Shown here: piece by piece, positions 4,829 through 23,260 of the stretch | How the letters are laid out: the number at the start of each line of letters is the position of its first letter | How positions within the stretch are numbered: position 1 is the first letter of the stretch | Assembly: GCA_002792115.1 (NCBI GenBank) | Contig: PFNQ01000013.1 | Coordinates: 7,236-71,235, forward strand | Source of the DNA: Candidatus Woesearchaeota archaeon CG_4_10_14_0_2_um_filter_33_13 | GTDB taxonomy: Archaea; Nanobdellota; Nanobdellia; Woesearchaeales; GW2011-AR9 | Direction of reading: 5' to 3' | DNA length: 64,000 nt | Made by a program: the position numbers and the translations under genes | The notes under the pieces: model-generated | Database searches by the model: none | What the model was told of the DNA's origin: nothing | The model's input: only the letters and a program-made list of their open reading frames with translations

Positions 4829-4921
4829 GTTTATTTATTACCAAGATACTTCGTTAAATCACGCCAACATCCTTTATAAATTTTGTTAAGTGAAGTTCTC
4901 CTAAAGTAATCCAAAAGATAA

Positions 4922-6211: not shown

Positions 6212-6244
6212 CTTCTCATAGTAAGAATTCTATTAAATACAATT

Positions 6245-7210
6245 TTATTTTTTCACAACCCATTGGTTTTCTTTGATCCATTTGATTGTTTTTTCTACAC
6301 ATTCCATTATGGAATATTTTGGAGCCCACCCCAAAGATTTTATTTTTAAAGTATCAAGATGAACAAAGGGGCTGTCTCCAATCCATCCTCTACTCCCACC
6401 AGTATATTGAAAAGAGACGTCTTTGAGAGATAGTACATCACAAATTTTTTTTGCAATTGTCTTTATTTCTACAAAATCATCATTCCCCAGGTTGTAAATG
6501 TTTATTTTTTCGTTTGATTTTTCAATGGATAAAAACATTGCATCTATTGCGTCAGTTACATACAAAAATGATTTCCTTTGTTTTCCATCTCCAAGAATTT
6601 CTAACTGGCGGGGGTTTTGTAATAGTTTTTTATAAAAATCAAATGCACACCCATGGCTGTACCTTTCTCCCATAAGCGAAACAAATCTGTATATATACAC
6701 ATTAAATCCATATCCATTAGCATAGGCTTCTAAGAGGCCCTCGCATGCAAATTTTGAAGCTCCATAAATAGATGTTTGAATTGGAGATGAAACATTTTCT
6801 GGTGTTGGAAACACGCTTGGTTCTCCATAGATGGCTCCTGATGAAGCAAAAGCAATGTTCTTCACTCCCCATCGTCTCATTGCTTCCAGAACATTGTTTG
6901 TTGCAATGGTATTTTGATTTAAACATTTTATTGGGTCTTTTAGATTATCTTTTATGTCCGCATTTGCCGCCATATGAAATACAAAATCAATGTTTTCCAT
7001 TGCTTTGTGTAATGCTTCTTTATCTAGAATATCTCCTTGAATGAGTTCTACTTTTTCTTTTAAATGATTCACAAATTCTTTTTTCCCAGTAGTAAGGTTA
7101 TCATAAATAATGACATTATTGTTTAGAGAAATTAAGCGTTCAACAATATGACTACCAATGAAACCAGCCCCACCTGTAACTAATACTCTTTTATTATTCA
7201 ACAAGATCAT
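6245..7210 (-). CDS. NAD-dependent sugar epimerase/dehydratase (extended SDR)
   Basis: Rossmann VLVTGGAGFIGSH and catalytic YGASK motif. Confidence 0.85.
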   Translation of the reverse strand: MILLNNKRVLVTGGAGFIGSHIVERLISLNNNVIIYDNLTTGKKEFVNHLKEKVELIQGDILDKEALHKAMENIDFVFHMAANADIKDNLKDPIKCLNQNTIATNNVLEAMRRWGVKNIAFASSGAIYGEPSVFPTPENVSSPIQTSIYGASKFACEGLLEAYANGYGFNVYIYRFVSLMGERYSHGCAFDFYKKLLQNPRQLEILGDGKQRKSFLYVTDAIDAMFLSIEKSNEKINIYNLGNDDFVEIKTIAKKICDVLSLKDVSFQYTGGSRGWIGDSPFVHLDTLKIKSLGWAPKYSIMECVEKTIKWIKENQWVVKK

Positions 7211-8031: not shown

Positions 8032-9061
8032 GTGTAATCCCCTTTTTTATTTGAGCATTCTTAATATTCAGTAGATGTTGTAAACAAACATTGTGTTCAC
8101 TATGTGTAGTGTGAACATATTGAGTACACTTTTTAATAAAACTTTCCCTAAATTTAACATTTTTAATTAACTTTAATGCCAGATTTGGAAGTTGAGAATT
8201 TTTTTTCTTAATTATTTCCCATTGGTCATTACAAACAACTGCAGTTCCACATGCCATCGCTTCTAATTCAACTAAACTTAAGACACCTTGCCAGAAGGAA
8301 CCTAGCACTAAGTCCGCAGAACGATACAACTTTGGAAGATCATTGCGTGGAAAGAAATTATGCCAGATGATATCGTCTTTATATGTTTCAAAGAAAGATT
8401 TATAACGGCCATATTGGCTAAACCTTTTTGGGTATTTAACCAAATGTAATTTAGCAGAAGGGCACTTTTCTTTTATTTTTGAAAATATCTTGAACCCGAA
8501 CTCTGGACTTTTGACTTTGTGCAAACGAGTTGGGAATAAGATAATTGGATTACCTTCTAATTGTATCTTTTCACCAGTTGGATTAAATATGTCCGTATTA
8601 ATTGGGTTTGGCAACCATTGCGCATCTTTTCTAATATATTTTAATGTTGGAAGAATACTAGGGATTGCAGCATAAACAATATCGTACTTTTTAACTGAAG
8701 AAATAATTTTATTCTCAACTATTCTATTTAATATTGTTCCAAAAAGATGACTAAAAAATTGACTATGTTTTAAAGAGTTCTTAGAATTAAGTCCAATTGA
8801 GAAACCATGCCAATGTGCAATCCCAACTTGCCTCTGGTTTGGTACCATATTAGTCATGTTTGACCACACATTACAATGTAAAATATCAAATCGAGACAAT
8901 TCGTCTTTTCTCATCTTTTTAAGATGAAGGTAATGGGTTATAAAGTCATAACGCCCACTCTTTGGTTGATAATAATAAAAATCCCATTCTTTCATATGTT
9001 TTTTAAAAGTGTCTAACAAAAAACCCGGACCAAATCCGTTCATAAAATATTTTCCCTTCAT
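8015..9061 (-). CDS. Glycosyltransferase, GT-B (GT4-like)
   Basis: C-terminal GSFWQGVLSLVELEAMACGTAVV resembling GT4 donor-binding EX7E/LEAMA.G.PV motif. Confidence 0.45.
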   Translation of the reverse strand: MKGKYFMNGFGPGFLLDTFKKHMKEWDFYYYQPKSGRYDFITHYLHLKKMRKDELSRFDILHCNVWSNMTNMVPNQRQVGIAHWHGFSIGLNSKNSLKHSQFFSHLFGTILNRIVENKIISSVKKYDIVYAAIPSILPTLKYIRKDAQWLPNPINTDIFNPTGEKIQLEGNPIILFPTRLHKVKSPEFGFKIFSKIKEKCPSAKLHLVKYPKRFSQYGRYKSFFETYKDDIIWHNFFPRNDLPKLYRSADLVLGSFWQGVLSLVELEAMACGTAVVCNDQWEIIKKKNSQLPNLALKLIKNVKFRESFIKKCTQYVHTTHSEHNVCLQHLLNIKNAQIKKGITHGKKN

Positions 9062-9197
9062 TTTTTAACTAATCTTGTAAACAGTTTATTTATTTTTCCA
9101 TATTCATTCTTCCTTTTAGGTATTCTTACTTATGAACTAGTAGTTTATACTCTAAACCACAGATAACCTTTTAAATCAGGAATAGTGGAGGAATTAA

Positions 9198-10358
9198 ATG
9201 ATTAGCATAGCTAAATATTTATCCGGGAAAGGTATAGACGTATCTAAGAAAAGCAGTCTTTCGGATGTTAAACATGTTTTCATCGTTCCCGATAATACCT
9301 ACAGAATAGTTGAAACAGAGTTAGATTTCATTTATAATGATGGTGTGATCAACCTTACTAAGTATTATCGCATATTATTAAAAGAATGGTTTTATGCGCT
9401 TAAAAAGGATGGAAAAATAATAATCAAGTTCATTGAATCAGATTGGTTTTCATCTGATTTTCTCAAAGAAGAAGTAGAACTCTTGTTTGGCGATAGCGTA
9501 TCGGTTATTTTTGAGAGAAAAGAGAATAAGAAAGATGGCGGGAGTTGTTTTTTGGTTCTTAATAAAAATATCTCTGGGCCGTATTATCCAGAAGGAATAA
9601 ATAATTGGTCTTTTGGAATAATTACCAATGGAAAGAAAATGGATGCCTTAGCTAAGATAATTGCATCTATTAGACACCAGAATATTCCTAATTATGAGAT
9701 TATTATTTGTGGAACTTATGGTGGTTTAATAGAAGAAGACACGAAATACATTCACTTTACAGAAAATGACCATCGGGGATGGATAACTAAAAAAAAAAAT
9801 TTGATTTGTGATAAAGCCAAATTTGAAAATTTGTTTGTTCTGCACGATAGGATTGTTCTTAATCCGGGATGGTTTGCAGGAATGAAAAAATACGGAAATA
9901 ACTTTGAAGTACTCTCTTGCAAAATAGATCATAAAACAATTAGGACTTATGATTGGATTACTTCTCGATACCCTTATAAAGATCCAAGAAGCCGACAATA
10001 TTTTGGTGGTTATTTAGAATATTCCGATTGGGACCAGTGGATTTACATTGATGGTGGGGCGATTATCCTAAAAAAAATAGTCTGGGAAAAAGTTAAATGG
10101 GATGAAAACCTATTTTGGAATGAAGCAGAAGATCTTAAGCTTAGTCATGATCAAACAGAGCACGGAATTTTAATTAGGTTCAATCCTTATTCAACGTGTG
10201 AATCATTAACCTGGAGACATCCATCAAGTAAACTTATTTTTAAAAAGAACAAAAAGAAACTTGGAAAACTAAGTGGTCCTTTTCATTATTTAATTGGAAA
10301 AAAGCTGCTTAATTATTCTGTCCTCGTGAAAAACAAGTTTAAAAATGAAAAATTATAA
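9198..10358 (+). CDS. Hypothetical two-domain protein (methyltransferase-like N-term, GT-A-like C-term?)
   Basis: ORF with weak similarity patterns only; embedded in glycosylation island. Confidence 0.3.
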   Translation: MISIAKYLSGKGIDVSKKSSLSDVKHVFIVPDNTYRIVETELDFIYNDGVINLTKYYRILLKEWFYALKKDGKIIIKFIESDWFSSDFLKEEVELLFGDSVSVIFERKENKKDGGSCFLVLNKNISGPYYPEGINNWSFGIITNGKKMDALAKIIASIRHQNIPNYEIIICGTYGGLIEEDTKYIHFTENDHRGWITKKKNLICDKAKFENLFVLHDRIVLNPGWFAGMKKYGNNFEVLSCKIDHKTIRTYDWITSRYPYKDPRSRQYFGGYLEYSDWDQWIYIDGGAIILKKIVWEKVKWDENLFWNEAEDLKLSHDQTEHGILIRFNPYSTCESLTWRHPSSKLIFKKNKKKLGKLSGPFHYLIGKKLLNYSVLVKNKFKNEKL

Positions 10359-11856
10359 TACTGATGTGGTGTTAATTAACCTCAATGGACCATTACATAT
10401 GACTTCTAATTATTTGCATGCTCTATTGAAACGTGAGGGAATTTTAGTTAAAACTATTCACTTTAGAGAATATGAGCCTCGGAGCGAACCTCCTACAAAT
10501 AATGAATTAGAAATACTCTCAAATTTGATTAAAGAGATTAATCCTAAAATAATTAACATTTCTGTAAATTCAATGAATTACTTTGATGCTAAGGATATTA
10601 CTGAAAAAATAAGAGGGGAACTTGGCATCCCTTTTATTTGGGGGGGCCCCCATACCCTTGTAATGCCTGAAGAAAGTATTAAAATCGCAGATTTCATTTG
10701 TCGTGGTGAGGGCGATGTTTATTTCCCAGAACTAATTAAGAAATTTATTGCAGGTGAGGATTGCAGTAAAGTTCCGAACATTTGGATTAAGAGGGGCCTA
10801 GAAGTAATAAAAAACGAATTTGGGCCTCTAGTTAAAGATTTGGACATGCTTCCATTTCCGGATTACTCTGATGTGGATAAATATTATCTGATTGATTCTC
10901 GGATAAGCACAAAGTATGAAATTCCTTCTAGAAAGTATGTTTATCAACTAATGACTTCTCGAGGGTGTCCTTTCAGGTGTAGTTATTGTATGAATTCTCT
11001 TATATTTAACTTATTCCATAACAAATTTCTTCGTAAACGGGGAGTTAATTCAGTAATAGAAGAGTTAGTCCAAGTAAAAAAGATGCATCCAAAATTAAAA
11101 ACAATTTATTTTTGGGATGACGTGTTTGTAATGGATCTTCCTTGGTTAAAAGAATTTGCCAAAGTATATAAAGAAAAGATTAATATCCCATTTTTTTGCT
11201 ATTGCCACCCAATGTTTGTAAAAGATGAAACAATTAAAATTCTTAAATGGATGGGTGTTAAGATGATCTTTATTGGGATTGAGAGTGGTTCTCCGCGGGT
11301 TAGAAGAGAAATTTACGATCGTCACGAAACTAACGACAAAATAATTGAAGCAGCAACAATTATTAACAAACATAAAATTAAGGTTCATTATGACATCATC
11401 ACTTCAAAATTTGACACTCTAAAGGACTTTGACGTTGCATTACATCTGTTACTAAACTTGCCTAAACCGTTTCATATAAATCATAATAATTTGGCATATT
11501 ATCCGGGATTTAAAATTACGAATTTGGCCCTCCAAGAAAAAATAATATCAAAGCAGGAAGTTGCGGGGTATTCAAGAAAGATTAGAACACAATATGCAAC
11601 AAAAAATGAATTTGAGAATAATCCTGAATTGGCATATTATTACCTCATTGGGAGAAAATTCATCCCCAACCAGTTTATTTTTTGGTTGTACTCACATGAA
11701 TCTCATCTCAAACATAAGAGTTTATTTGGCCATATCCCTTCTTTGTTTGAAAGCTTTGATAATAATTTACATGCTCTAAATTTGATGTTTAAGCTGTTGT
11801 CATATGGGGAATTTAAATTTGTATTTTTTGAACTTAAGAAACGATTCTTTAAGTGA
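10345..11856 (+). CDS. B12-binding-domain radical SAM protein (class B rSAM)
   Basis: CPFRCSYCMNS CxxxCxxC cluster after N-terminal B12-binding-like domain. Confidence 0.7.
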   Translation: MKNYNTDVVLINLNGPLHMTSNYLHALLKREGILVKTIHFREYEPRSEPPTNNELEILSNLIKEINPKIINISVNSMNYFDAKDITEKIRGELGIPFIWGGPHTLVMPEESIKIADFICRGEGDVYFPELIKKFIAGEDCSKVPNIWIKRGLEVIKNEFGPLVKDLDMLPFPDYSDVDKYYLIDSRISTKYEIPSRKYVYQLMTSRGCPFRCSYCMNSLIFNLFHNKFLRKRGVNSVIEELVQVKKMHPKLKTIYFWDDVFVMDLPWLKEFAKVYKEKINIPFFCYCHPMFVKDETIKILKWMGVKMIFIGIESGSPRVRREIYDRHETNDKIIEAATIINKHKIKVHYDIITSKFDTLKDFDVALHLLLNLPKPFHINHNNLAYYPGFKITNLALQEKIISKQEVAGYSRKIRTQYATKNEFENNPELAYYYLIGRKFIPNQFIFWLYSHESHLKHKSLFGHIPSLFESFDNNLHALNLMFKLLSYGEFKFVFFELKKRFFK

Positions 11857-11877
11857 GATACTTTAACATCTGTAAAA

Positions 11878-13500
11878 TTGTCAGAGATTCACAAACTTTA
11901 TATAAGCCCAGTTACACAGAATTTGTGGTGTACCCAAGTGATTCCTGATAACAAATATGTATTAGTTTTAAATTTAGGATTGAGGAGTATTAGAGCAATT
12001 GTTTTTGATCATACTGGTAAAAAGTTAACACATAGCTGGCTACCAGTAAGAACTTTTATTAAGGATGAGATGGTTGAACAAGATCCAAATGAGTGGTGGT
12101 CACTTGCCTTACGTGTAATTGACGAAGCTACTACTAGCCAAGAAATAAAAGATAATTTGGAATATATTACTGTTACAAGTTCATCTTGTAATCTGGTTCT
12201 TGTTGATGAAGATAAAAACTCGTTGGGTAATTCTTTAATGGTTTCTGACAAAAGGTCTTTAATACAGGCACAACAACTTTTTGAACATGAACCAATAAAA
12301 TATTTGTTTGATACACATAATATTCTTCCAGTTTCAAGTTTCTTAGCTCCAAAAATTCTTTGGATAAAAGATAAAGATCCAAATCGATTTTATCATACAA
12401 AACATTTTATTAGCTCTGATTCTTACCTTTTGATGAAACTAACTAATGGGATTATTGTTTCTGACCCTCTTAATGCTGAAAAAGCATTTTATTACATGCC
12501 TGAGAATAAATACCCTGCTCCATTATTAGAATATTTAGGTCTAACTGAAAAAAACTTTCCTCAAGTTAAGAATGTTGGAACAATTATTGGTAAAATTTCT
12601 CCTGAACTAAAAACTTTGTTTGCTTTTAACCAAAACGTTAGTGTGGTTCTTACAACTTATGATGCATTAGCTTCATTCTGGGGTTCGGGAGCACTAGAAG
12701 AAGGAGAAGCATGCATTGTTTGTGGAACGTGTTCTTCCATTAGAGTTTACTCTAAAGAAGGGCTAAAACAAAAAACTGCTGGATTATTATCTCAATATTT
12801 TGAAAATAAAAATGCTCATGTTGTTGGTGGATCAAATAATCTTGCAGGCGGTCTTTTAGAATGGGCTAAGGACGCATTTTATCAGGATGTTTATTCAGAT
12901 AATAATGACTATATCTTTGGTTTGATGGAGCAAGAAGCTAACACTAGTACTCTTGGAGCAAAAGGATTAATCTTTCTGCCATATCTTATTGGAGAAAGAA
13001 CCCCCTTCTTTGATTCTGAGGTTAGAGGTATGTTCTTTGGATTAGAAAGATCCCATAATAGAAAAGATATTATCAGATCAATCTACGAAGCCATTGGGTT
13101 TTTATCTTGGGATATTATCACATCTATGGAAAGAGGTGGGGTGTTAGTCAGAAATCTTCGCCTTTCTGGCGGCTTAGGAAAAAATGAGTTAATTTGTCAG
13201 ATTAAGGCTGATATTACTGGGAAAGAAGTTCATCTTTTGGATGAGGTTGAAACAACTGCTCTCGGATGTTTTATGCTTATTGCTTCTGCTTTAGGGGGTA
13301 ATGAAACACAGAAAGTTTTTCCCACAAATCTCTCTATCAGTAAAAGGTTCATTCCTAATTTAGATAACCATATCAAATATCAACAACTCTATCACCTTTT
13401 CAAAAAATTATACAAAGACAATAAAGAAAATTTTAAGTACAGAAATGAATTACTCAAAACAATTAATGAAAAGAGGAAATACGAAGTAAAAAACTTATAG
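11878..13500 (+). CDS. FGGY-family carbohydrate (pentulose/polyol) kinase
   Basis: FGGY N-terminal LVLNLGLRSIRAIVFD and C-terminal GGLGKNELICQIKADITG motifs. Confidence 0.6.
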   Translation: MSEIHKLYISPVTQNLWCTQVIPDNKYVLVLNLGLRSIRAIVFDHTGKKLTHSWLPVRTFIKDEMVEQDPNEWWSLALRVIDEATTSQEIKDNLEYITVTSSSCNLVLVDEDKNSLGNSLMVSDKRSLIQAQQLFEHEPIKYLFDTHNILPVSSFLAPKILWIKDKDPNRFYHTKHFISSDSYLLMKLTNGIIVSDPLNAEKAFYYMPENKYPAPLLEYLGLTEKNFPQVKNVGTIIGKISPELKTLFAFNQNVSVVLTTYDALASFWGSGALEEGEACIVCGTCSSIRVYSKEGLKQKTAGLLSQYFENKNAHVVGGSNNLAGGLLEWAKDAFYQDVYSDNNDYIFGLMEQEANTSTLGAKGLIFLPYLIGERTPFFDSEVRGMFFGLERSHNRKDIIRSIYEAIGFLSWDIITSMERGGVLVRNLRLSGGLGKNELICQIKADITGKEVHLLDEVETTALGCFMLIASALGGNETQKVFPTNLSISKRFIPNLDNHIKYQQLYHLFKKLYKDNKENFKYRNELLKTINEKRKYEVKNL

Positions 13501-13504
13501 AAAA

Positions 13505-14221
13505 ATGAAAGTATTAATCCCCCTCGCAGGACGTGGCTCACGCTTTATTGAAGCAGGTTATACCCTGCCAAAACCATTGGTTCTTATTATTAAAGAACCA
13601 ATGATTCGATGGGCAACTAAAAACCTTAACATTGAGGATAAAGATTTGATTTTTTTCATTCTCAAGATCCATATCGATAATTATCAATTAGATCAGAAAT
13701 TAAGAGAAATATTCTCCGCTAATATCAAAATTGTTGTTGTGGATAAAATTACCGAAGGGGCTCCAATAACTCTTCTTCAGGCAAAAGACATTATCGATAC
13801 CGAAGAAGAACTTTTAATATTTAATGGAGACCAGAACTTCAAAGAAAACATTATAGAAATGATTCGTAATCTTCCATTAAAGTATTCTGGGTTAATACCT
13901 GTGTTTCATTCAACACAAACAAAATTTAGTTACGCTCAAGTTGATAAGGGTATGGATGTTATAGAAGTGGCAGAAAAGATTCCAATTTCTAGTTATGCAA
14001 CTGCAGGAGTTTACTATTTCCGCCATGGAAAAGATTTTGTGTGGGCCACAGAACAAATGATATCTAAAGATATTAGAAGAGGGAATGAATTCTTTGTTTG
14101 TCCAGTATACAATGAATTGCTTGGACGCGGGGACAAAATAAAAGCCACCTTAATTGAAACTTTCTGGCCTTTAGGAACACCAGAAGATGTAGAACACTTT
14201 AAAAGGTATTATCATCCTTGA
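13505..14221 (+). CDS. Sugar-/alditol-phosphate nucleotidyltransferase (LicC/NTP_transferase-like), paralog 1
   Basis: MKVLIPLAGRGSRF...PKPLV N-term; paralog of 15478..16197 (shared ...CPVYNELL..G.KI...WPLGTPEDV...). Confidence 0.6.
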   Translation: MKVLIPLAGRGSRFIEAGYTLPKPLVLIIKEPMIRWATKNLNIEDKDLIFFILKIHIDNYQLDQKLREIFSANIKIVVVDKITEGAPITLLQAKDIIDTEEELLIFNGDQNFKENIIEMIRNLPLKYSGLIPVFHSTQTKFSYAQVDKGMDVIEVAEKIPISSYATAGVYYFRHGKDFVWATEQMISKDIRRGNEFFVCPVYNELLGRGDKIKATLIETFWPLGTPEDVEHFKRYYHP

Positions 14222-15047
14222 TGTGTTTATATAATTGTTTTAATTTATTGGGATAGTCAGTACAGATTCCATCAACATTCAATCTAATGAGGCGTTCCCA
14301 TACTTCTTCAAATCCTTCTTTTGATAGTGGGTGCTTAGGAATAGTATCTTTATGCAGTTCTGGTGAGATTGCGTAGACTAATTTGCCGTCATTATGGCAT
14401 TTATCAATAAACTCTTTGTTATATAATCCATGAACCCATTCATCTGCCCAGACAATTTCCCAACAATTCTCTTTAATGGCCTCTTGGTAGTTGTAGATTG
14501 TTGGATATCTTTTGTCCGGAAAGAGTATATTCTCTCCAATCGATAAAGATAGTTTAAGCTTAGGTTGGAGTTTTTGAAACTTTTTAGCAGAACTAATCAA
14601 AATGTCAAACACAAAAACACGTTTATAAATGTTAAAATCTGGAAAATCTTTTTCAAACTGGTCTAGTTCCTTAACTATCAATATTTCAATATCCTTTTCG
14701 GAACAATCTTTAACTTGAATTGCCAATTCAACCACAGGTAAGGATTTTGCTCTAAACAATTCTAATGTTTCTCTCAAGGAAGGAATTTTTCCAGTGTTAT
14801 TTACTCCAGTTGCTTTTATATAATTAATGCCAATTTTCTGAAGAGAATCAAAATTTATGTTAGTTATTTCTTTATCAATACTTGCTAGGCGTTTAAGATT
14901 AGAATCATGGATGACCACTAGTTTGCCATCTTTGGTACGGTGGATGTCAATCTCTAGACCAAACCCTTGTTCTAGGGCGTGTGTAAAAGATAAAATCGTA
15001 TTCTCTGGATAATTAAGCATTAATCCGCGATGAGCAAAAATTTTCAT
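14199..15047 (-). CDS. Glycerophosphodiester phosphodiesterase (GDPD family)
   Basis: FAHRG...ENT...E.D.H.TKDGKLVVIHD catalytic motif. Confidence 0.8.
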   Translation of the reverse strand: MKIFAHRGLMLNYPENTILSFTHALEQGFGLEIDIHRTKDGKLVVIHDSNLKRLASIDKEITNINFDSLQKIGINYIKATGVNNTGKIPSLRETLELFRAKSLPVVELAIQVKDCSEKDIEILIVKELDQFEKDFPDFNIYKRVFVFDILISSAKKFQKLQPKLKLSLSIGENILFPDKRYPTIYNYQEAIKENCWEIVWADEWVHGLYNKEFIDKCHNDGKLVYAISPELHKDTIPKHPLSKEGFEEVWERLIRLNVDGICTDYPNKLKQLYKHIKDDNTF

Positions 15048-15151
15048 ACTACTCTCCTTATAACTGTTTTTTATATTTTTTTCGCAAGAGATATAACTTT
15101 AGGTCGCTTTTTTTCATAATTATTATAAATAAAAAGCGTAACCTTTGTTCC

Positions 15152-15481
15152 ATGGAAAGGCAAGATTTTAAGGAAATGACTAAAGGGTGGTTTGTTGGAG
15201 ATTTTGAGCCAAGTGCATTAAAGACAGATAAAGCGGAAGTAGCGGTTAAAAGATATAAAAAGGATGATTTTGAAGAAAAACATCATCATAAAGTTGCTAC
15301 GGAAATAACTTTAATTATCTCTGGAAAAGTTGAGATGAATAATCAGTGTTATCAAACCAATGATATTATTATAATTCTTCCTGGAGAAAGTACTAACTTT
15401 AAAGTTCTTGAAGACACTATTACCGTGGTCGTAAAAGTTCCATGTGTGAAAGGAGATAAATATTTAGGTGATGCAAAATGA
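15152..15481 (+). CDS. Small cupin-fold protein
   Basis: 109 aa, beta-barrel-like pattern with HHH cluster; overlaps next start (ATGA). Confidence 0.35.
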   Translation: MERQDFKEMTKGWFVGDFEPSALKTDKAEVAVKRYKKDDFEEKHHHKVATEITLIISGKVEMNNQCYQTNDIIIILPGESTNFKVLEDTITVVVKVPCVKGDKYLGDAK

Positions 15482-16197
15482 AAATTGTTATGCCCATTGC
15501 GGGATTAGGTTCAAGATTTACTAAGGTGGGGATTGATACTCCAAAACCATTAATCAGTATTCTTAACAACCATATGGCAAAATGGTCTGCTAAATCCATT
15601 CCTTTTGCTAAACCGGAAGACTTTATTTTTATTCTCAGAAAAGAACATGTTAAATCTCATAATCTTGACAAGGAAATGCGGAAATTATTCCCCGAATGTA
15701 AAATCATTGAAATTGATTATGTTACTCAGGGAGCTGCATGTACTGTACTTTTAGCTAAAGAATTTATTAACAACGATGAACAACTAATAGTTACGGATTG
15801 TGACCATTTCTTTAGGAACACCCATTACAACTTTTTAGTAACTAGCAAGATTGATGACCTTAAAGGAATAATCCCTGTTTTTAAGGCTGATGGTGAGAAA
15901 TGGAGCTTTACAAAGTTTGATGAGAATAATGTAGTTTTACAAGTAGCAGAAAAGAAAAGGATTTCAGACTATGCTAATATTGGGGCGTACTATTTTCGAT
16001 ACGGGAAAGATTTCGTATGGGCTGCTGAAAAGATGATCAAAGAGAATAAACGGGTGAATAATGAATTTTATGTTGCTCCAGTTTATAATGAGTTGTTAGA
16101 AAGTGGCGCTAAGATTATGGCTGCCGTTTGTGACGAAGTATGGGGTTTGGGCACCCCAGAGGATGTTAAAATATTTGAAGAAAAGTTTATAAATTAA
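15478..16197 (+). CDS. Sugar-/alditol-phosphate nucleotidyltransferase, paralog 2
   Basis: MKIVMPIAGLGSRF...PKPLI; clear paralog of 13505..14221. Confidence 0.6.
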   Translation: MKIVMPIAGLGSRFTKVGIDTPKPLISILNNHMAKWSAKSIPFAKPEDFIFILRKEHVKSHNLDKEMRKLFPECKIIEIDYVTQGAACTVLLAKEFINNDEQLIVTDCDHFFRNTHYNFLVTSKIDDLKGIIPVFKADGEKWSFTKFDENNVVLQVAEKKRISDYANIGAYYFRYGKDFVWAAEKMIKENKRVNNEFYVAPVYNELLESGAKIMAAVCDEVWGLGTPEDVKIFEEKFIN

Positions 16198-16793
16198 ATA
16201 GTAACAATTTTGGAAGTATGGTCTTTCGGATTGATTAAAACAGCATAAACCTCTTCATTAGAAGGATTATAAGCTATTATTTCTGGTTCAGAACAGTTTT
16301 CAAAATACCTTTTTGTATTACGCATTACTCCCAAATGTGAAATCACTAAAATTACATCTTTTTTGTTTCCTTTGATTAACTTCTTCAAGAAATTAGCAAC
16401 GCGGGGATAAATAATGGCATAACTTTCTCCAGCTAATCCTTCATACTCTCCGGGATGAACAAAATTATATTTGTCCTTGTTTCTTGTTTGCCAAAGATTA
16501 TCTGCCTTTAACAAAGATTTTTTATGACCTTCCCATGAACCATAACACATCTCTTTCAAATTATTAATAATTGTAACTGGAATGTTGGATTCTTTTGCAA
16601 TGACTTTCGTCGTCTCTATACACCGAGTAGCAGGACTAGAGAAGATTTGGATTACATTTATGGTCTTAGCTAGTTTTGCTAGTTTTTTTGCTTGTTCTAT
16701 TCCTTTTTTTGTTAATGGAGAATCTGATATCCCTTGTAATCTACCTTCACAATTATATTCAGTTTCTCCATGCCGTGCAAAAACAATTAACAT
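16194..16793 (-). CDS. Histidine phosphatase family protein (PGM-like)
   Basis: N-terminal FARHGETEYN RHG motif. Confidence 0.8.
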   Translation of the reverse strand: MLIVFARHGETEYNCEGRLQGISDSPLTKKGIEQAKKLAKLAKTINVIQIFSSPATRCIETTKVIAKESNIPVTIINNLKEMCYGSWEGHKKSLLKADNLWQTRNKDKYNFVHPGEYEGLAGESYAIIYPRVANFLKKLIKGNKKDVILVISHLGVMRNTKRYFENCSEPEIIAYNPSNEEVYAVLINPKDHTSKIVTI

Positions 16794-16865: not shown

Positions 16866-18146
16866 TTAATTCTTTTTTTTAAGTGCGTAATAAAAGTAAA
16901 CTATCCCCAAACTAGTACTTAACAAAGTAGCCAATACTGCTCCGGTGATATAATATTTTGGTATCAGGATAACATTGAAGAGTATGTTACTTGCTGTTTG
17001 TAATATCATCCCATAAAAATAGTTCTTTGTTTTTCTTAAGCTTGTTGCAGTGAGTAATGACATATAAACCATGTTTATTGAAAGTAATGTTGATGCTAGG
17101 CAGAAGATGATCCATGAATTAATTAAAAAGGGGTAATCATATATTTTAACAACAATAATGTATGTGATTGGCAGGAGCACCATAAAAGCAAGAGGGGTAG
17201 AAAATAGCAATAGCTTGTTTATTTTCTTAAAAGCAGATCCTTTTTCTTTAAACTGGGTTATTGTTGGGAATAAAACATTAATGAACACACCCGTGATGGT
17301 TGCAATAATTATAGTTGAAGCTAAGAAATAAGCTTGATACATCCCCACACTTTCAGTTCCGTAAAAATAATTTAACATTATCTTGTCAACGTTGGCCAAA
17401 ACTATTCCAGAAACTGAAGCAAAAATAATAAATTGATTATATTGACTAATTTTATTAAATACTTTCTGATTAAAGGTGATCTTTATTTTAGGGATAATGT
17501 ATTTAGTAGTCAAAAAGAAACTAATGATATGTATACTAAATAATGGAAGCAAGATCAAATAAATGCCTCTCCCTGTGAAATATAAATACACAAATGTAAT
17601 AAACAATACACTATGTGATATTATTTGTATTGTAGACAACTCTTTGAACTTTAACAATGTTTTGAGAAAGTTATCAGAATAACTAGATAATGCGACTAGT
17701 AATGCGTAAAAAATACTCAAAATAATTGTACTTATTTCTACTTTAAAAACAATGCTTAACAAACCTTTTATCAAAAATAAAATTATTCCAGAGAAAATAA
17801 AAATTACAAAGTAGGAAATGGTTATTGTTGAGAGTAATTCTGTCTTTTTAACTTGGCTTTCTTCTTCTTGATAAAATTTAGTTAAGGCATTTCCCCCAGA
17901 AAAGATAATTATTGGTAGGCATAATATTGTTCCAATAGATATAATCAAGTTAACTTTACCATATATTGCTGGACCCAAAACTCTGCCACCAATTGTTTGG
18001 ACCATAAATAGTAATCCTTTGGCAAAAAGTGTTGCCAGTAAAACAAGGCCAACATTCTTAAGAAAAGCTTTCTCGCCAGAGCTAATCTCATTATTAAATA
18101 TTTTCTGGTGCAATTTATATATTAAGTTAAGTAATAATCTTTTCAT
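16866..18146 (-). CDS. Polysaccharide/oligosaccharide flippase (Wzx/MOP-like, multi-TM)
   Basis: 426 aa, roughly 12 hydrophobic helices, adjacent to GTs. Confidence 0.55.
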   Translation of the reverse strand: MKRLLLNLIYKLHQKIFNNEISSGEKAFLKNVGLVLLATLFAKGLLFMVQTIGGRVLGPAIYGKVNLIISIGTILCLPIIIFSGGNALTKFYQEEESQVKKTELLSTITISYFVIFIFSGIILFLIKGLLSIVFKVEISTIILSIFYALLVALSSYSDNFLKTLLKFKELSTIQIISHSVLFITFVYLYFTGRGIYLILLPLFSIHIISFFLTTKYIIPKIKITFNQKVFNKISQYNQFIIFASVSGIVLANVDKIMLNYFYGTESVGMYQAYFLASTIIIATITGVFINVLFPTITQFKEKGSAFKKINKLLLFSTPLAFMVLLPITYIIVVKIYDYPFLINSWIIFCLASTLLSINMVYMSLLTATSLRKTKNYFYGMILQTASNILFNVILIPKYYITGAVLATLLSTSLGIVYFYYALKKKN

Positions 18147-20356: not shown

Positions 20357-23260
20357 CTAGCAGTTGTAATCAACGATCCACGTTGAAATTTTCCCGCCAG
20401 TAAACTGTTGTACTTCATCAAACTTTTCAAAGCACTTCGTTCCAAGACCATCAAAAAAGAATAACTTGGTAAAGGTGCTGTACGCCAGCGACGTGTCAGA
20501 TAACAACGCAGCATACCCATTACCATTTGGAATCAGAATTAAAGATGAACCGATAGTCTGACCATCAAATTTTTGTTCTTTTAACTCTTTTCCTTGTACA
20601 TAAACTAAAGATGCTGGGGAAACATTTTGTCCGTTATTAGTTCTAACTTTAGCAATGGCTTCATTTAAATTGATATCTAATGTAATGGATCCTTGCTGAG
20701 TATTGATCTGGCAGGTTACATTTGCTGAACTACTATTCTGACATTGATTTAACCCAGAATGATAGCTTGGCCATGAAGCAATCCATTGATCGGCATCTGT
20801 GGTTTGTATTTCATAACGAATCCTGTCTGCTTCATCTTCAGTTAAGGAGAAATTTTTAGTTAAATAATTAATTGCATCATCTTTTTTCATATTTTTTGTA
20901 TTTTGATACATAACTGCTTTATCAAAATCCCAGCTTCCAAAATGTCCCCAAACTCCTGCTTTACCCACCATATCTTCTGAGGTGATGTAATAATCGGTTG
21001 GTGCTTCGCAGTGTGTGTATTGAATAACGGAAGCCACTTGATTAGCATTTAATCCATAATCATTTAAGGTTTCAATCGCAGCTTCTTTCTTTTCTACGAT
21101 TATTTTGTTGATTATCTTAATCTCTTTTGGCGTGTCATTGAAAATATTATCTAACTCTATGAATGCACTGTTTTGCCCGCAATTTAACATTCTGATTATG
21201 CCTACTGTTGTTTTTTCATCGCTTGTCAAAAGTGATTTCCCGACCCAATGGGCATCCCATCCAACTTGCATACCTCCATCAAAGGTTGTTGGTCGCTCAG
21301 CTATCGCCATAAACCAGTATCCAAAATCCCACCACGAAGTTATCACTGCTTCAGCGGGAGCTTCGCTATTGATCTTAGTTAAAGTGTTATGCCAAGCATC
21401 ATTCATCGCTGGTACAGAATTGTATGCAGTTGAATATCCTGCCATGCTTGGTTGAATTAATAGCACTCCTAACAATAAAAATACAACCACCTTTGAAATA
21501 GTTAAATTAAGATTTAGTTCTTTATTAGTCCAATTACTAATATAACTCCAAGCTAATCCCAAGAATGCACCGAATAATATTGCCACTATCGGTGCAACCA
21601 TTAAAATAAACCTAACTCCCCTTGTTGTAGTATATAATGCTATAGCTAACCAAAAAGATAAAATTAATGCAATCATCAAATTATTGTTTGATTTATCTTT
21701 AACATTTCTTAACATCAATAAAATAATTCCTACTATCGCTAGAGTAAAAATTAGTTTTCCTCCTACTTGGCTGATTACTTGTGAGAATGGAGCAACATTA
21801 AGCTCTGCTACTGTAGTTAAGATATTTGGCCATAAGGAATCTATTGCTACTGCCTTTAAGTGGATTAATGAATTTATTGGTTCAAACAATCCGCTGTAAA
21901 AAGAGTTAAACGAACTAAATATAGAAACAAAAAGTCCTGAACTTATGAGGTAGGTTCCAAATAGGGACACATTTGAGAAAAAATCATCTTTCTTAATTAG
22001 AGTTTTAAGAGCCTTAGAATTTCTAATTAATTCATAAGCAAAGTATGAAAGCATAGATACTGCAAATATGGAAAAGAAATACCACCAAGCTCCCCACACA
22101 AAACTAAGTAATCCTGTTGCTAAACCAGCTAAGACAGTCCAACCTAATTTCTTCTTTAAATCCTTGCAAGTAATCGCTTCAATTAATAACCACAAAATCA
22201 GTATTGGAAAGAAGACAACGTAAACATCTGTGTCTGAACTTTCTCCGGTGGTTCTGGAAACAAAAAAAGCTGAGACTGCAATTAAAATAGCAACAAAAAA
22301 TCCACCAACATTATTTTTAGTGATTTTTTTACCGATAAAGAATGCAGGAATAACTGTTAATGCTGAGAAGATAGTTCCTATTAAAAAGAAACTAAACATC
22401 AATGGTACGTCTGAAAAAGAACTTAAAAATCGATGTAAAAATGCTCCAAACCAGGTGTGAAAATTTCCCCCTTCTGGTGAACCAGTTGGGTAGGCTCGAT
22501 AAGAATCATAATACTTTCCATCTTTTATTGAATTACCCGGATGACCATTTTCTAATCTATATTCTGTTTGTCTGTAAAAATAATAAGGGTCAATTCCTAA
22601 CAGATATAAAGTTCCCTGATCATCTCTAAACTGATCTTTATATTGTTGTGATACTTGCTTAATATCATTATTAACCTGGTCCTTGTTTTTCTCTTTTAAT
22701 TTTTGCAATTCATTCTGGACTAATGCATCTCTGTTTTGTTGTGGCAAGTTAGGATACTGTTGATTGATCTGGGCGGTAACTTGATTTTGATAAAAATTAT
22801 TAACTGTATTGTCGGCCCATTCATCGGTTATTGACATTCTTAATGGCATGGTTCGTAGATAAACAGAAGCAAACATAGCAATTAAAATAAATAATGCGGG
22901 GATGATCCATTTAGCATTAGTTTTAGCAAAAGTGGTAATTTTTGAAAAATCTACAGAAAGTTCGTCATCATTAACTTCTTTTTTGTGATGTTTATGTTCC
23001 GGATGGGAATGTTTATCTTTATCAGAAGAAGTTAAGCTTTTAAAAAATCGTTTAGCTTTATTTTTTATCTCAGAAAAATCTATTGATAAATCCTCATTAT
23101 CCTTATGAAACTCTTTTTTAACAACTTCTACTTTCCCAAGAGTGATCGTTTTTTTGTCACTATGATGTTGCAAAGTGTCTTCTGTTTTTGTTTCTTCCTG
23201 CTCCTCAGTATTAGAATCAATCTTAATATCTTTAGCCAATTTTCCACCCCAATAATCCAT
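20357..23260 (-). CDS. aglB: Archaeal oligosaccharyltransferase AglB (STT3 family)
   Basis: Polytopic N-terminal domain with EL1 motif GIDPYYFYRQTE and catalytic SWWDFGYW (WWDYG) motif plus large C-terminal globular domain. Confidence 0.85.
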   Translation of the reverse strand: MDYWGGKLAKDIKIDSNTEEQEETKTEDTLQHHSDKKTITLGKVEVVKKEFHKDNEDLSIDFSEIKNKAKRFFKSLTSSDKDKHSHPEHKHHKKEVNDDELSVDFSKITTFAKTNAKWIIPALFILIAMFASVYLRTMPLRMSITDEWADNTVNNFYQNQVTAQINQQYPNLPQQNRDALVQNELQKLKEKNKDQVNNDIKQVSQQYKDQFRDDQGTLYLLGIDPYYFYRQTEYRLENGHPGNSIKDGKYYDSYRAYPTGSPEGGNFHTWFGAFLHRFLSSFSDVPLMFSFFLIGTIFSALTVIPAFFIGKKITKNNVGGFFVAILIAVSAFFVSRTTGESSDTDVYVVFFPILILWLLIEAITCKDLKKKLGWTVLAGLATGLLSFVWGAWWYFFSIFAVSMLSYFAYELIRNSKALKTLIKKDDFFSNVSLFGTYLISSGLFVSIFSSFNSFYSGLFEPINSLIHLKAVAIDSLWPNILTTVAELNVAPFSQVISQVGGKLIFTLAIVGIILLMLRNVKDKSNNNLMIALILSFWLAIALYTTTRGVRFILMVAPIVAILFGAFLGLAWSYISNWTNKELNLNLTISKVVVFLLLGVLLIQPSMAGYSTAYNSVPAMNDAWHNTLTKINSEAPAEAVITSWWDFGYWFMAIAERPTTFDGGMQVGWDAHWVGKSLLTSDEKTTVGIIRMLNCGQNSAFIELDNIFNDTPKEIKIINKIIVEKKEAAIETLNDYGLNANQVASVIQYTHCEAPTDYYITSEDMVGKAGVWGHFGSWDFDKAVMYQNTKNMKKDDAINYLTKNFSLTEDEADRIRYEIQTTDADQWIASWPSYHSGLNQCQNSSSANVTCQINTQQGSITLDINLNEAIAKVRTNNGQNVSPASLVYVQGKELKEQKFDGQTIGSSLILIPNGNGYAALLSDTSLAYSTFTKLFFFDGLGTKCFEKFDEVQQFTGGKISTWIVDYNC

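What the first reader, a model, noticed from the sequence alone, without database searches (positions are those of the whole stretch)
10345..16793. Putative sugar/alditol-phosphate decoration module: B12-radical-SAM, FGGY kinase, duplicated nucleotidyltransferases flanking GDPD and a cupin, plus a histidine phosphatase
Two clear paralogues (13505-14221 and 15478-16197) of a LicC-like NTP-transferase bracket a glycerophosphodiester phosphodiesterase and a small cupin. An FGGY kinase and a class-B radical SAM (a likely C-methyltransferase) lie upstream, and a histidine phosphatase downstream.

This suggests synthesis of an unusual NDP- or CDP-activated phospho-sugar or polyol (for example glycerol-, ribitol- or methylated-sugar phosphate). 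Its role would be to decorate the glycan, teichoic-acid-like, which is unusual for archaea.
Basis: inference. Interest (0 to 1): 0.55.

Follow-up and report, generated by a model that had tools for sequence, protein, structure and literature searches.

The report
Conserved rare-sugar activation cassette, salvage-fed variant
The genes are real and form a unit conserved from tiny symbiotic archaea to ordinary bacteria that most likely activates an unusual sugar and attaches it to surface glycans, but they look less like a teichoic-acid polyol-phosphate pathway than like the poorly understood bacterial system that adds fructose side chains to capsules.

Summary
All seven genes lie at the stated coordinates. 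The two nucleotidyltransferases (NTs) are true paralogues (42% identity, E=9e-68).

The unit should be re-cut. An upstream gene (9198-10358, no Pfam family) belongs to it and models as a GT-A glycosyltransferase.

In about 80 loci from DPANN archaea, CPR bacteria, cyanobacteria, planctomycetes, Paraburkholderia and others, this glycosyltransferase recurs with two NTs, the small cupin, the GDPD enzyme and usually a beta-phosphoglucomutase-type HAD. In the window's variant an FGGY kinase, usually with a histidine phosphatase, takes the place of the HAD. The kinase gene is always directly followed by the NT-a-type gene (9 of 9 loci). The B12-radical-SAM gene is an occasional accessory.

The NTs are not LicC-, IspD- or TarI-like. 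They belong to the 4EVW family, whose E. coli members sit beside a BcbF-type phosphatase. In Pasteurella, bcbE and bcbG are needed for the capsule's fructose branch.

The kinase lacks the glycerol-binding motif, and the island holds no TagF, LicD or Stealth transferase.

Best reading: a salvage-fed pathway makes a rare NDP-sugar, possibly a ketose, for the AglB N-glycan. The sugar's identity and the GDPD role are unresolved.

The parts
9198..10358 (+). X386: the dedicated GT-A (GT2-like, inverting-type) glycosyltransferase, with an N-terminal truncated methyltransferase-like domain.
10345..11856 (+). Class-B (B12-binding) radical SAM enzyme, a lineage-specific accessory and probably a C-methylase of the sugar or the nucleotide-linked intermediate.
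   Evidence: PF02310 plus PF04055, with a CxxxCxxC motif. No NCBIfam equivalog is reached; the best is HpnJ at 96 bits against a 578-bit cut-off. Embedded in the operon here and in Levybacteria L008 (186 bits). An orthologue lies near X386 in L016 (415 bits). Absent from most loci.
11878..13500 (+). FGGY sugar kinase of a CPR/DPANN-rich subfamily. It is the salvage entry step that feeds NT-a.
   Evidence: FGGY_N and FGGY_C. Best NCBIfam matches are XylB at 215 bits (cut-off 380), GntK at 193 and GlpK at 171. The GlpK 'NQRET' site is 'TSSSCN', a site that stays serine-rich and never NQRET-like in orthologues. Directly followed by an NT-a-clade gene in 9 of 9 loci.
13505..14221 (+). NT-a: a 4EVW/BcbE-family nucleotidyltransferase of the FGGY-coupled clade.
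   Evidence: PF00483. 4EVW at E=6.8e-16. Intact GRGSRF...PKPL motif and an 'NGDQ' motif. Forms a clade defined by the upstream FGGY gene.
14199..15047 (-). Cytoplasmic GDPD-family phosphodiesterase. A core member of the cassette whose role is unresolved.
   Evidence: PF03009 at 91.7 bits. No N-terminal signal-like segment (sequence). H6, R7, E32, D34 and H47 are invariant, and D48 is 96% conserved, in 48 orthologues. Present in 42 of 61 NT-bearing loci and often adjacent to or overlapping X386.
15152..15481 (+). Small metal-binding cupin, probably a sugar(-phosphate) or NDP-sugar isomerase or epimerase. Translationally coupled to NT-b.
   Evidence: About 50% identical between Woesearchaeota and Paraburkholderia, with H44, H46 and E51 invariant. 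17 of 20 orthologues match Cupin_2 weakly and 10 of 20 match PF14667. Weak PDB profile hits to small cupins, a 113-aa mannose-6-P isomerase and the Cap5F cupin. HAD-cupin fusions in L044 and L048. A 4-nt overlap with NT-b.
15478..16197 (+). NT-b: a 4EVW/BcbE-family nucleotidyltransferase of the clade that sits next to the cupin, GDPD or IMPase gene.
   Evidence: PF00483. 4EVW at E=2.5e-20. 30% identical over its full length (E=5e-29) to the E. coli capsule-locus NT that sits beside a BcbF-type phosphatase. Intact GLGSRF...PKPL motif and a clade-specific 'TDCDHFF' motif.
16194..16793 (-). Histidine phosphatase (branch 1), a phosphatase or phosphomutase that accompanies the FGGY kinase.
   Evidence: PF00300 at 141 bits. 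Best PDB matches are the PhoE, PspA and CobC phosphatases. Below every NCBIfam equivalog cut-off. Found in 6 of 9 FGGY-type loci and in essentially none of the HAD-type loci.
16866..18146 (-). Context: Wzx-type flippase of the glycosylation island.
   Evidence: Polysacc_synt and Polysacc_synt_3.
20357..23260 (-). Context: AglB/STT3 oligosaccharyltransferase, the likely final user of the glycan.
   Evidence: PF02516 STT3 plus STT3-PglB_core. The same GT4, DUF2304, GT2 and STT3 neighbours occur in L001.

Best explanation
The region is the salvage-fed variant of a widespread, uncharacterised cassette that makes one or two rare nucleotide-activated sugars and adds them to a surface glycan. Here the target is the dolichol-linked N-glycan that AglB transfers to proteins.

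Proposed steps:
1. The FGGY kinase phosphorylates a scavenged free sugar, most likely a ketose or pentulose-type sugar (inferred).
2. The histidine phosphatase repositions or removes a phosphate. It does the job that a beta-phosphoglucomutase-type HAD does in most other loci (inferred from the substitution pattern).
3. NT-a converts the resulting sugar phosphate into an NDP-sugar. The family assignment and the strict gene coupling are shown; the substrate is inferred.
4. The cupin isomerises or epimerises a sugar phosphate or NDP-sugar in the branch served by NT-b (inferred from coupling and fusions).
5. The class-B rSAM may add a C-methyl group in this lineage (inferred).
6. X386, an inverting-type GT-A glycosyltransferase, transfers the sugar. 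The fold and conserved catalytic-type motifs are shown; donor and acceptor are inferred.

The GDPD phosphodiesterase is a catalytically intact core member whose step is not explained. It may supply or process a glycerophospho-linked acceptor, or clear a phosphodiester by-product.

The closest functional analogue is the kinase-like + phosphatase + BcbE-type NT trio needed for the fructofuranose branch of the Pasteurella type B capsule.
For: Gene set and paralogy.

Synteny across DPANN, CPR and many bacterial phyla. Of 61 non-redundant NT-bearing loci, 43 have an NT pair, 42 GDPD, 37 the cupin and 43 the HAD. FGGY occurs in 6, none of which has the HAD; one of two later-fetched FGGY loci (L094) has both.

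FGGY is directly followed by an NT-a-clade gene in 9 of 9 loci.

Rosetta-stone fusions HAD-NT and HAD-cupin.

X386 is a GT-A glycosyltransferase: with invariant or near-invariant HD and ED residues.

The NT family equals 4EVW and is closer to sugar-1-P NTs than to LicC or IspD.

E. coli homologues sit next to a TIGR01689 'EcbF-BcbF' phosphatase (200 bits) and a 525-aa protein with weak APH-kinase similarity.

bcbE and bcbG mutants lose the fructose branch: PMC13552107.

The FGGY is not a glycerol kinase and is XylB/GntK-like.

The island is an AglB N-glycosylation island with no polyol-phosphate transferase.
Against: - No enzyme of the cassette has been assayed, and no sugar identity can be read from sequence.
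- FGGY kinases are known to phosphorylate primary hydroxyls, not anomeric ones. An NDP-glycosyl donor therefore needs a mutase step, which is only assumed. The closest structures to both the HisPhos and the HAD are phosphatases.
- Two FGGY loci (L093, L094) lack the HisPhos, and L094 has both HAD and FGGY.
- The tight FGGY-to-NT coupling would fit a directly used omega-phosphate, which is CDP-alditol logic.
- The GDPD role and the need for two NTs remain unexplained.
- The equation of the E. coli NT with BcbE rests on synteny with a BcbF-family phosphatase. It also rests on my recollection of the CDD name GT2_BcE_like. The BcbE sequence itself was not compared.
- Co-occurrence statistics are conditioned on X386, which was the bait for the genome scan.
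Confidence: 0.45

Rival explanations
1. The kinase makes a polyol or ketose omega-phosphate (glycerol-, ribitol-, xylulose-phosphate or similar). The NTs make CDP- or NDP-alditol-type donors. The moiety is attached through a phosphodiester, teichoic-acid-like. GDPD trims or recycles glycerophospho-diester units.
For: FGGY kinases phosphorylate primary hydroxyls, and the kinase gene is always directly followed by NT-a. GDPD enzymes act on glycerophosphodiesters, and the catalytic residues are invariant. The best NCBIfam hit of the GDPD is lysophosphatidylglycerol phospholipase D. Some homologues carry weak IspD or NTP_transf_3 hits.
Against: The NT profile is far closer to RmlA, GMPP, GlmU and HddC than to LicC, IspD or IPCT. 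The characterised ketose-phosphate cytidylyltransferase HS5.18 is PF01128 (PMC10918830). The FGGY lacks the glycerol-binding NQRET motif. No TagF, LicD, Stealth or CDP-alcohol transferase and no alditol-forming reductase occur in the module. The conserved transferase is a GT-A glycosyltransferase. The HAD-NT and HAD-cupin fusions have no role in CDP-alditol pathways.
Confidence: 0.22
2. The cassette makes a soluble glycoside, in compatible-solute logic. An NDP-sugar from an NT is transferred by the GT-A enzyme to a phosphorylated acceptor such as glycerol-3-phosphate, supplied by GDPD or the kinase. A phosphatase (HisPhos, HAD or IMPase) then removes the phosphate, as in glucosylglycerol, glucosylglycerate or mannosylglycerate synthesis.
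Confidence: 0.08
3. There is no common pathway. The genes are independent neighbours in a glycosylation island, or a catabolic and salvage set for host-derived glycerophosphodiesters and sugars in a symbiont.
For: DPANN and CPR organisms depend on scavenging. GDPD, the kinase and the phosphatase are typical salvage enzymes. The genes lie on both strands.
Against: The same set recurs with conserved adjacency, gene overlaps and fusions in free-living bacteria of many phyla, always with a glycosyltransferase.
Confidence: 0.05

Closest known systems
BcbE/BcbF/BcbG module for the fructose side chain of the Pasteurella multocida type B capsule (related trios in E. coli capsule and O20-type loci)
   Same: The NT family is shared. 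NT-b is 30% identical over its full length to the E. coli NT that sits beside a TIGR01689 EcbF-BcbF phosphatase. The logic is the same: kinase(-like) + phosphatase + NT in a surface-glycan locus. bcbE and bcbG are genetically required for a glycosidic ketofuranose branch (PMC13552107).
   Different: The kinase here is FGGY, not the 525-aa APH-like protein. The phosphatase is a histidine phosphatase, not a small HAD. There are a second NT paralogue, a GDPD, a cupin, an rSAM and a different transferase; X386 is unrelated to the BcbG-like protein (hhalign probability 0.2). The context is an archaeal N-glycan. The biochemistry of the Bcb trio is itself unknown, and BcbE was not compared directly.
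PDB 4EVW, nucleoside-diphosphate-sugar pyrophosphorylase of Vibrio cholerae RC9 (a structural-genomics entry)
   Same: Same family: profile E=2.9e-64 over the full length.
   Different: No ligand or function is attached to 4EVW. The only paper citing it is about crystallisation prediction.
NDP-heptose pathway (GmhA isomerase, HddA kinase, GmhB phosphatase, HddC NT)
   Same: The logic of isomerase, kinase, phosphatase and NT. HddC structures score E about 1e-8 to 1e-9 with the NT profile. A heptose-type set lies 4-7 kb upstream in the same island.
   Different: Different enzyme families fill every step: cupin instead of SIS, FGGY instead of GHMP, HisPhos instead of HAD. There is also a second NT and a GDPD.
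CDP-alditol and CDP-ketose pathways (TarI/TarJ CDP-ribitol; C. jejuni HS5.18/HS5.17 CDP-6-D-glucitol; pneumococcal AbpA/AbpB and Gtp1-3)
   Same: A sugar or polyol phosphate is activated by a nucleotidyltransferase to decorate a surface glycan.
   Different: HS5.18 is PF01128, as are IspD and TarI (own knowledge); the other NTs named were not checked. These pathways are paired with a reductase and with TagF- or LicD-type phosphotransferases. None of these is present here.
Phosphomannose isomerase (cupin) + phosphomannomutase + GDP-mannose pyrophosphorylase
   Same: Cupin + mutase-type enzyme + PF00483-type NT, with fusions between them. GMPP structures score about 5e-11. A small cupin annotated as mannose-6-P isomerase appears among the weak hits.
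   Different: No family-level membership. The mutase-type enzyme is a beta-PGM-type HAD or a HisPhos, not an alpha-PGM/PMM.

Membership tests
4EVW / BcbE-type nucleotidyltransferases | Full-length homology to 4EVW, including the family-specific C-terminal half | tested here: met
   E=6.8e-16 for NT-a and 2.5e-20 for NT-b, residues about 3-234. Profile 2.9e-64.
4EVW / BcbE-type nucleotidyltransferases | Intact nucleotide-binding loop G-x-G-S-R-F ... P-K-P-L | tested here: met
   NT-a has AGRGSRF...PKPL and NT-b has AGLGSRF...PKPL. The HAD-coupled NT1 clade of other loci has lost the Arg.
4EVW / BcbE-type nucleotidyltransferases | Neighbouring TIGR01689 (EcbF-BcbF) small HAD phosphatase and BcbG-like 525-aa protein | tested here: not met
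   The window has an FGGY and a His_Phos_1 instead. phmmer with the E. coli proteins finds nothing in the window.
4EVW / BcbE-type nucleotidyltransferases | Direct sequence identity with P. multocida BcbE | not testable with these tools
   The BcbE sequence was not retrievable. The link rests on synteny with a BcbF-family phosphatase and on my memory of the CDD name GT2_BcE_like.
LicC / IspD / TarI alcohol-phosphate cytidylyltransferases | Family-level sequence similarity over the whole domain | tested here: not met
   LicC 9.8e-5 (residues 3-55 only), IspD 8.9e-5, IPCT 2.7e-5, against RmlA and GMPP at 1e-10 to 1e-12.
Ordinary Glc-1-P uridylyl- or thymidylyltransferase (GalU/RmlA) | Reaches the NCBIfam equivalog cut-off | tested here: not met
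   rmlA_long at 55 and 44 bits against 320; GalU at about 22 against 327.
FGGY glycerol kinase (GlpK) | Equivalog score and the glycerol-binding N-Q-R-E-T motif | tested here: not met
   171 bits against 498 and 164 against 590. The motif is replaced by T-S-S-S-C-N in the window, and the site stays serine-rich and never NQRET-like in six orthologues.
FGGY xylulokinase (XylB) | Equivalog score | tested here: not met
   TIGR01312 is the best hit, at 215 bits against a cut-off of 380. It is the nearest subfamily only.
GDPD glycerophosphodiester phosphodiesterase | Pfam gathering score and the catalytic H-R, E-x-D and H-D residues | tested here: met
   91.7 bits against 23.6. H6, R7, E32, D34 and H47 are invariant and D48 is 96% conserved in 48 sequences. 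The substrate was not tested.
Class-B (cobalamin) radical SAM methyltransferases | B12-binding domain plus radical SAM domain with CxxxCxxC | tested here: met
   PF02310 at 38.1 bits and PF04055 at 65.5, both above cut-off, with CPFRCSYC. No characterised equivalog is reached.
Histidine phosphatase superfamily, branch 1 | Pfam score and the N-terminal RHG motif | tested here: met
   141 bits, with 'FARHGETE'. CobC at 109.5 bits against 162.9 is not met. Mutase versus phosphatase cannot be decided.
Cupin superfamily | Cupin_2 match and the metal motif H-x-H-x(3-4)-E | tested here: inconclusive
   The window protein has no hit. 17 of 20 orthologues hit weakly, all below the gathering score. H44, H46 and E51 are invariant. 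No structure was predicted.
GT-A (GT2-like) glycosyltransferases | GT-A fold with a DxD-equivalent and a catalytic ED-type motif | tested here: met
Teichoic-acid-type polyol-phosphate systems | A TagD- or TarI-type activating enzyme plus a TagF-, TarL- or LicD-type phosphotransferase | tested here: not met
   No such Pfam family occurs among the ORFs of 1-31 kb.

The most novel reading that the evidence does not exclude
The cassette (GT-A X386, two BcbE-type NTs, cupin and GDPD, with either a beta-PGM-type HAD or FGGY + HisPhos) encodes the missing route to a nucleotide-activated ketofuranose such as fructo-, xylulo- or ribulo-furanose. A HAD or HisPhos phosphomutase would make the anomeric 2-phosphate. 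The GDPD would act in a new role on a sugar phosphodiester or cyclic phosphate. DPANN archaea and CPR bacteria would run a salvage-fed version for their surface glycans.
Probability: 0.15. Interest if true: 0.8.

Novelty: new variant of a known kind. Interest (0 to 1): 0.55.

Why it matters
How bacteria activate ketofuranoses and some pentofuranoses for glycan synthesis is an open problem. A 2019 review of E. coli O antigens states that no nucleotide-activated ribofuranose has been demonstrated, and that precursor genes for it and for xylulofuranose are not found in the O-antigen clusters (PMC7685785). The fructose-branch genes of Pasteurella and of E. coli K4 are known only genetically.

This analysis ties an archaeal N-glycosylation island to that NT family. 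It defines a much larger conserved cassette with a previously unclassified GT-A transferase. It also shows two interchangeable entry routes: a HAD, or an FGGY kinase with a histidine phosphatase.

That gives a small set of soluble enzymes to test, and several cultivable carriers (Paraburkholderia, Nostoc, Stieleria, Cellulomonas). It also shows that DPANN archaea and CPR bacteria share glycan-decoration hardware adapted to scavenging.

Tried and rejected
- Literature on 4EVW yielded only a crystallisation-prediction paper.
- Full-text searches that combined GDPD, cupin, NT and HAD terms found nothing.
- hhalign of the X386 family against the BcbG-like 525-aa protein showed no relation.
D8, D10, H20 and K145 are conserved but R49 and N118 are not. 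This is inconclusive, and the reference sequence is not verified.
- Cluster names for the E. coli homologues gave only 'capsular biosynthesis protein' and not BcbE or KfoD.
- The E. coli O20 lead could not reveal the sugar. The review says the O20 structure does not fit the galF-gnd locus.
- The C. jejuni IA3902 capsule insertion (CJSA_1356-1362) matches the cassette in gene sizes and order. Its sequences could not be fetched.
- A glycerol-kinase reading of the FGGY was rejected on motif and score.
- A 'LicC-like' reading of the NTs was rejected.
- No tRNA genes were found in the window, and base composition is uniform across it. So there is no sign of a recent foreign insertion.

Full report
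OBSERVATION. Their domain assignments hold:
- a B12-binding radical SAM enzyme (10345-11856, cluster motif CPFRCSYC);
- an FGGY kinase (11878-13500);
- two PF00483 nucleotidyltransferases, NT-a (13505-14221) and NT-b (15478-16197);
- a GDPD phosphodiesterase (14199-15047, minus strand);
- a branch-1 histidine phosphatase (16194-16793, minus strand).

NT-a and NT-b are 42% identical over their full length, E=9e-68. The 109-aa ORF (15152-15481) has no significant hit of its own. Its orthologues match Cupin_2 weakly (17 of 20) and share an invariant H-x-H...E motif. The window matches a Candidatus Woesearchaeota archaeon: the X386 protein is 100% identical to PIZ52021.1 (locus tag COY27_01550). 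Base composition is uniform at about 32% GC.

RE-CUTTING THE UNIT. Neighbourhoods of NT-b homologues showed that an upstream 386-aa protein belongs to the set. This protein, X386 (9198-10358), has no Pfam family and overlaps the rSAM start by 14 nt. In those loci the rSAM was absent and the small cupin was present only in the closest relative.

THE CASSETTE. A scan of one genome per species with the X386 alignment returned 80 loci. They come from Woesearchaeota, Pacearchaeota, Micrarchaeota, Methanosarcinales MAGs and many CPR lineages. They also come from Nostoc, Calothrix, Anabaena, Stieleria, Rhodopirellula, Paraburkholderia, Gemmatimonadaceae, Acidobacteriota, Subtercola and Cellulomonas.

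I searched six-frame ORFs of all loci with the window proteins. Of 61 non-redundant loci that carry an NT of this family:
- 43 carry two NTs;
- 42 carry the GDPD;
- 37 carry the cupin;
- 43 carry a HAD of the beta-phosphoglucomutase/YqaB subfamily;
- 6 carry the FGGY, 5 the histidine phosphatase and 8 an IMPase-family protein.

The six FGGY loci in that set have no HAD. Two further FGGY loci, fetched through kinase homologues, complete the picture. L093 has FGGY, NT-a, NT-b, GDPD and X386. L094 has GDPD, NT-b, HAD, FGGY and NT-a.

So the window carries a variant in which FGGY, usually with the histidine phosphatase, stands where the HAD normally stands. The cupin is about 50% identical between the archaeon and Paraburkholderia, which points to strong constraint and horizontal spread. 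GDPD catalytic residues are invariant or nearly so across 48 orthologues. An rSAM orthologue is embedded in the module only here and in a Levybacteria locus, and lies near X386 in L016.

INTERNAL LOGIC. A neighbour-joining tree of 89 NTs separates two clades. One, which includes NT-a, always lies directly downstream of FGGY (9 of 9 independent loci). The other, which includes NT-b, lies next to the cupin, GDPD or IMPase gene. The two differ in a conserved active-site stretch: 'NGDQ' in NT-a against 'TDCDHFF' in NT-b. Both keep the G-x-G-S-R-F...P-K-P-L loop in the window. In HAD-type loci the HAD-coupled NT has lost the Arg of that loop.

Fusion proteins HAD-NT (seven cyanobacterial loci and one Pacearchaeota locus) and HAD-cupin (two gammaproteobacterial MAGs) tie these three activities to one pathway. 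In a Methanosarcinales MAG the order is HAD, NT, cupin, GDPD, NT, with overlapping or abutting genes.

WHAT THE ENZYMES RESEMBLE. The NTs belong to the family of PDB 4EVW, an unannotated structural-genomics protein. A family profile scores as follows:
- 4EVW at 2.9e-64;
- RmlA, GMPP, GlmU and heptose-1-P NTs at 1e-9 to 1e-12;
- LicC, IspD and IPCT at only about 1e-4 to 3e-5, confined to the nucleotide loop.

Both NTs fall far below the GalU and RmlA equivalog cut-offs.

The FGGY is nearest XylB and GntK (215 and 193 bits, below cut-off). It carries T-S-S-S-C-N where glycerol kinases have the glycerol-binding N-Q-R-E-T. That site stays serine-rich and never NQRET-like in six orthologues. Its subfamily is abundant in CPR and DPANN, and 23 of its top 120 members share contigs with the top 120 NT hits.

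The histidine phosphatase is closest to the PhoE, PspA and CobC phosphatases. The cassette HAD is closest to a sugar-phosphate phosphatase and to beta-phosphoglucomutases.

LINK TO A STUDIED SYSTEM. tblastn with the 4EVW sequence found E. coli and Aeromonas plasmid capsule loci. A follow-up search found E. coli chromosomal loci. In these loci the NT lies with a 123-131-aa HAD and a protein of about 525 aa. The HAD scores 200 bits on TIGR01689, 'EcbF-BcbF capsule biosynthesis phosphatase'. The 525-aa protein has a weak APH-kinase match. NT-b is 30% identical to the E. coli NT over its full length, E=5e-29.

In Pasteurella multocida type B, bcbE and bcbG insertion mutants make a capsule that lacks the fructose branch, and BcbE/F/G are the predicted fructose-addition genes (PMC13552107). 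By position the E. coli trio corresponds to BcbE-BcbF-BcbG. I recall that CDD names this NT family GT2_BcE_like, which would explain NCBI's 'glycosyltransferase family 2' label. That recollection is not a test, and BcbE itself was not compared.

The window's FGGY + histidine phosphatase + NT-a repeats the kinase-like + phosphatase + NT logic with non-homologous kinase and phosphatase. This is also the logic of NDP-heptose synthesis, a copy of which lies 4-7 kb upstream (SIS isomerase, GHMP kinase, NT-HAD fusion, SDR).

CONTEXT. Positions 107-31243 form a glycosylation island. It holds GT4 and GT2 transferases, FkbM and other methyltransferases, the heptose-type genes, a Wzx-type flippase, DUF2304, AglB/STT3 (20357-23260), a UbiA prenyltransferase and two PMT_2 GT-C proteins. 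No TagF, LicD, Stealth or CDP-alcohol transferase is present. L001, from another Woesearchaeota genome, has the same module next to GT4, DUF2304, GT2 and STT3.

INTERPRETATION. Three things are shown:
- a conserved, mobile cassette with a GT-A transferase;
- two active-looking NTs of the 4EVW family;
- a substitution of HAD by FGGY (usually with HisPhos), and strict FGGY-to-NT-a coupling.

The rest is inferred. The cassette activates a rare sugar and X386 adds it to the glycan. FGGY is a salvage entry suited to organisms without full sugar-phosphate metabolism. The cupin is an isomerase or epimerase. The rSAM adds a methyl branch in this lineage.

A ketose-type sugar is favoured for three reasons: the Bcb/fructose link, the XylB-like kinase, and the beta-PGM-type and HisPhos-type enzymes. 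Relatives of the last two (beta-phosphoglucomutase and fructose-2,6-bisphosphatase) handle beta-anomeric phosphates, which is established knowledge rather than a test here. This favoured reading remains speculative.

Weak points:
- FGGY kinases are not known to make anomeric phosphates.
- The closest relatives of the HisPhos and the HAD are phosphatases.
- The GDPD and the second NT are unexplained.
- The kinase-to-NT coupling would equally suit a CDP-alditol route.

The characterised ketose-phosphate cytidylyltransferase of C. jejuni (HS5.18) is PF01128 (PMC10918830). IspD and TarI belong to the same family (own knowledge). CDP-alditol routes of that kind also need reductases and phosphotransferases that are absent here. 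I therefore rank the NDP-sugar/GT-A model (0.45) above the polyol-phosphate model (0.22), a soluble-glycoside model (0.08) and a no-common-pathway model (0.05).

NOVELTY. Nucleotide-sugar cassettes in glycan islands are a known kind. This particular cassette, its unclassified GT-A transferase, the interchangeable entry modules and its spread across DPANN, CPR and many bacterial phyla do not appear in the literature I could search. I rate it a new variant of a known kind, of moderate interest. It could make the open question of ketofuranose and pentofuranose donor synthesis (PMC7685785) directly testable.

Noticed in passing
window 3247-7210 (minus strand): A complete heptose-type nucleotide-sugar set lies in the same island. 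It comprises a SIS isomerase (3247-3855), a GHMP kinase (3833-4828), an NT-HAD fusion (4922-6211) and an SDR epimerase/dehydratase (6245-7210). This suggests an NDP-(deoxy)heptose in a DPANN N-glycan.
   Followed up: partly
L077:17541-18269, L038:7229-7975, L042:8262-9005 and relatives: In HAD-type cassettes the NT directly downstream of the HAD has lost the Arg of the G-x-G-S-R-F loop (for example GAGSSF, GGKSQFF, or the loop replaced altogether). Its partner NT keeps it. One paralogue may be non-catalytic or may have a changed reaction.
   Followed up: partly
C. jejuni IA3902 capsule locus, CJSA_1356-1362 (PMC7901785, Table 4): An insertion encodes a 639-aa sugar transferase, a 619-aa 'dTDP-glucose pyrophosphorylase', a 109-aa unknown, a 111-aa protein, a 241-aa 'glycosyl transferase', a 219-aa HAD and a 212-aa unknown. 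These sizes and this order match the HAD-type cassette. The authors saw no second capsule.
   Followed up: no
L091 (E. coli O20:H12, galF-gnd locus) 8854-11566: The O20/O137-type O-antigen locus starts with a BcbF-like HAD, a 529-aa APH-like protein and a 4EVW-family NT. A review says the published O20 structure does not fit this locus (PMC7685785).
   Followed up: partly
L094:5359-11281: In a 427-kb contig a RuBisCO large-subunit gene lies directly upstream of GDPD, NT-b, HAD, FGGY and NT-a. A UDP-arabinopyranose-mutase-like (RGP) gene and a sulfotransferase lie downstream.
   Followed up: no
L046, L050-L053, L057, L058 (Calothrix, Anabaena, Pseudanabaena, Nostoc, Komarekiella): Cyanobacteria carry a minimal version: GDPD, a 448-aa HAD-NT fusion and one or two X386-like genes, with no cupin or second NT detected.
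   Followed up: partly
L077:9329-11782 and other bacterial loci: In bacteria the X386-type domain is embedded in proteins of 600-800 aa, with DUF4214, a methyltransferase-like region and DUF7024. These often lie beside ABC-2 transporter genes, GT4s and WcbI. This suggests a role in ABC-transporter-dependent O-polysaccharide assembly.
   Followed up: partly
window 34613-35311 (+): A further weak NT-like ORF (232 aa; 29 bits to NT-a) lies outside the island.
   Followed up: no
window 11878: The FGGY ORF is called from a TTG start. This gives a 26-residue extension before the FGGY_N domain, and most orthologues are 510-526 aa against 540 here. The true start may be downstream.
   Followed up: no
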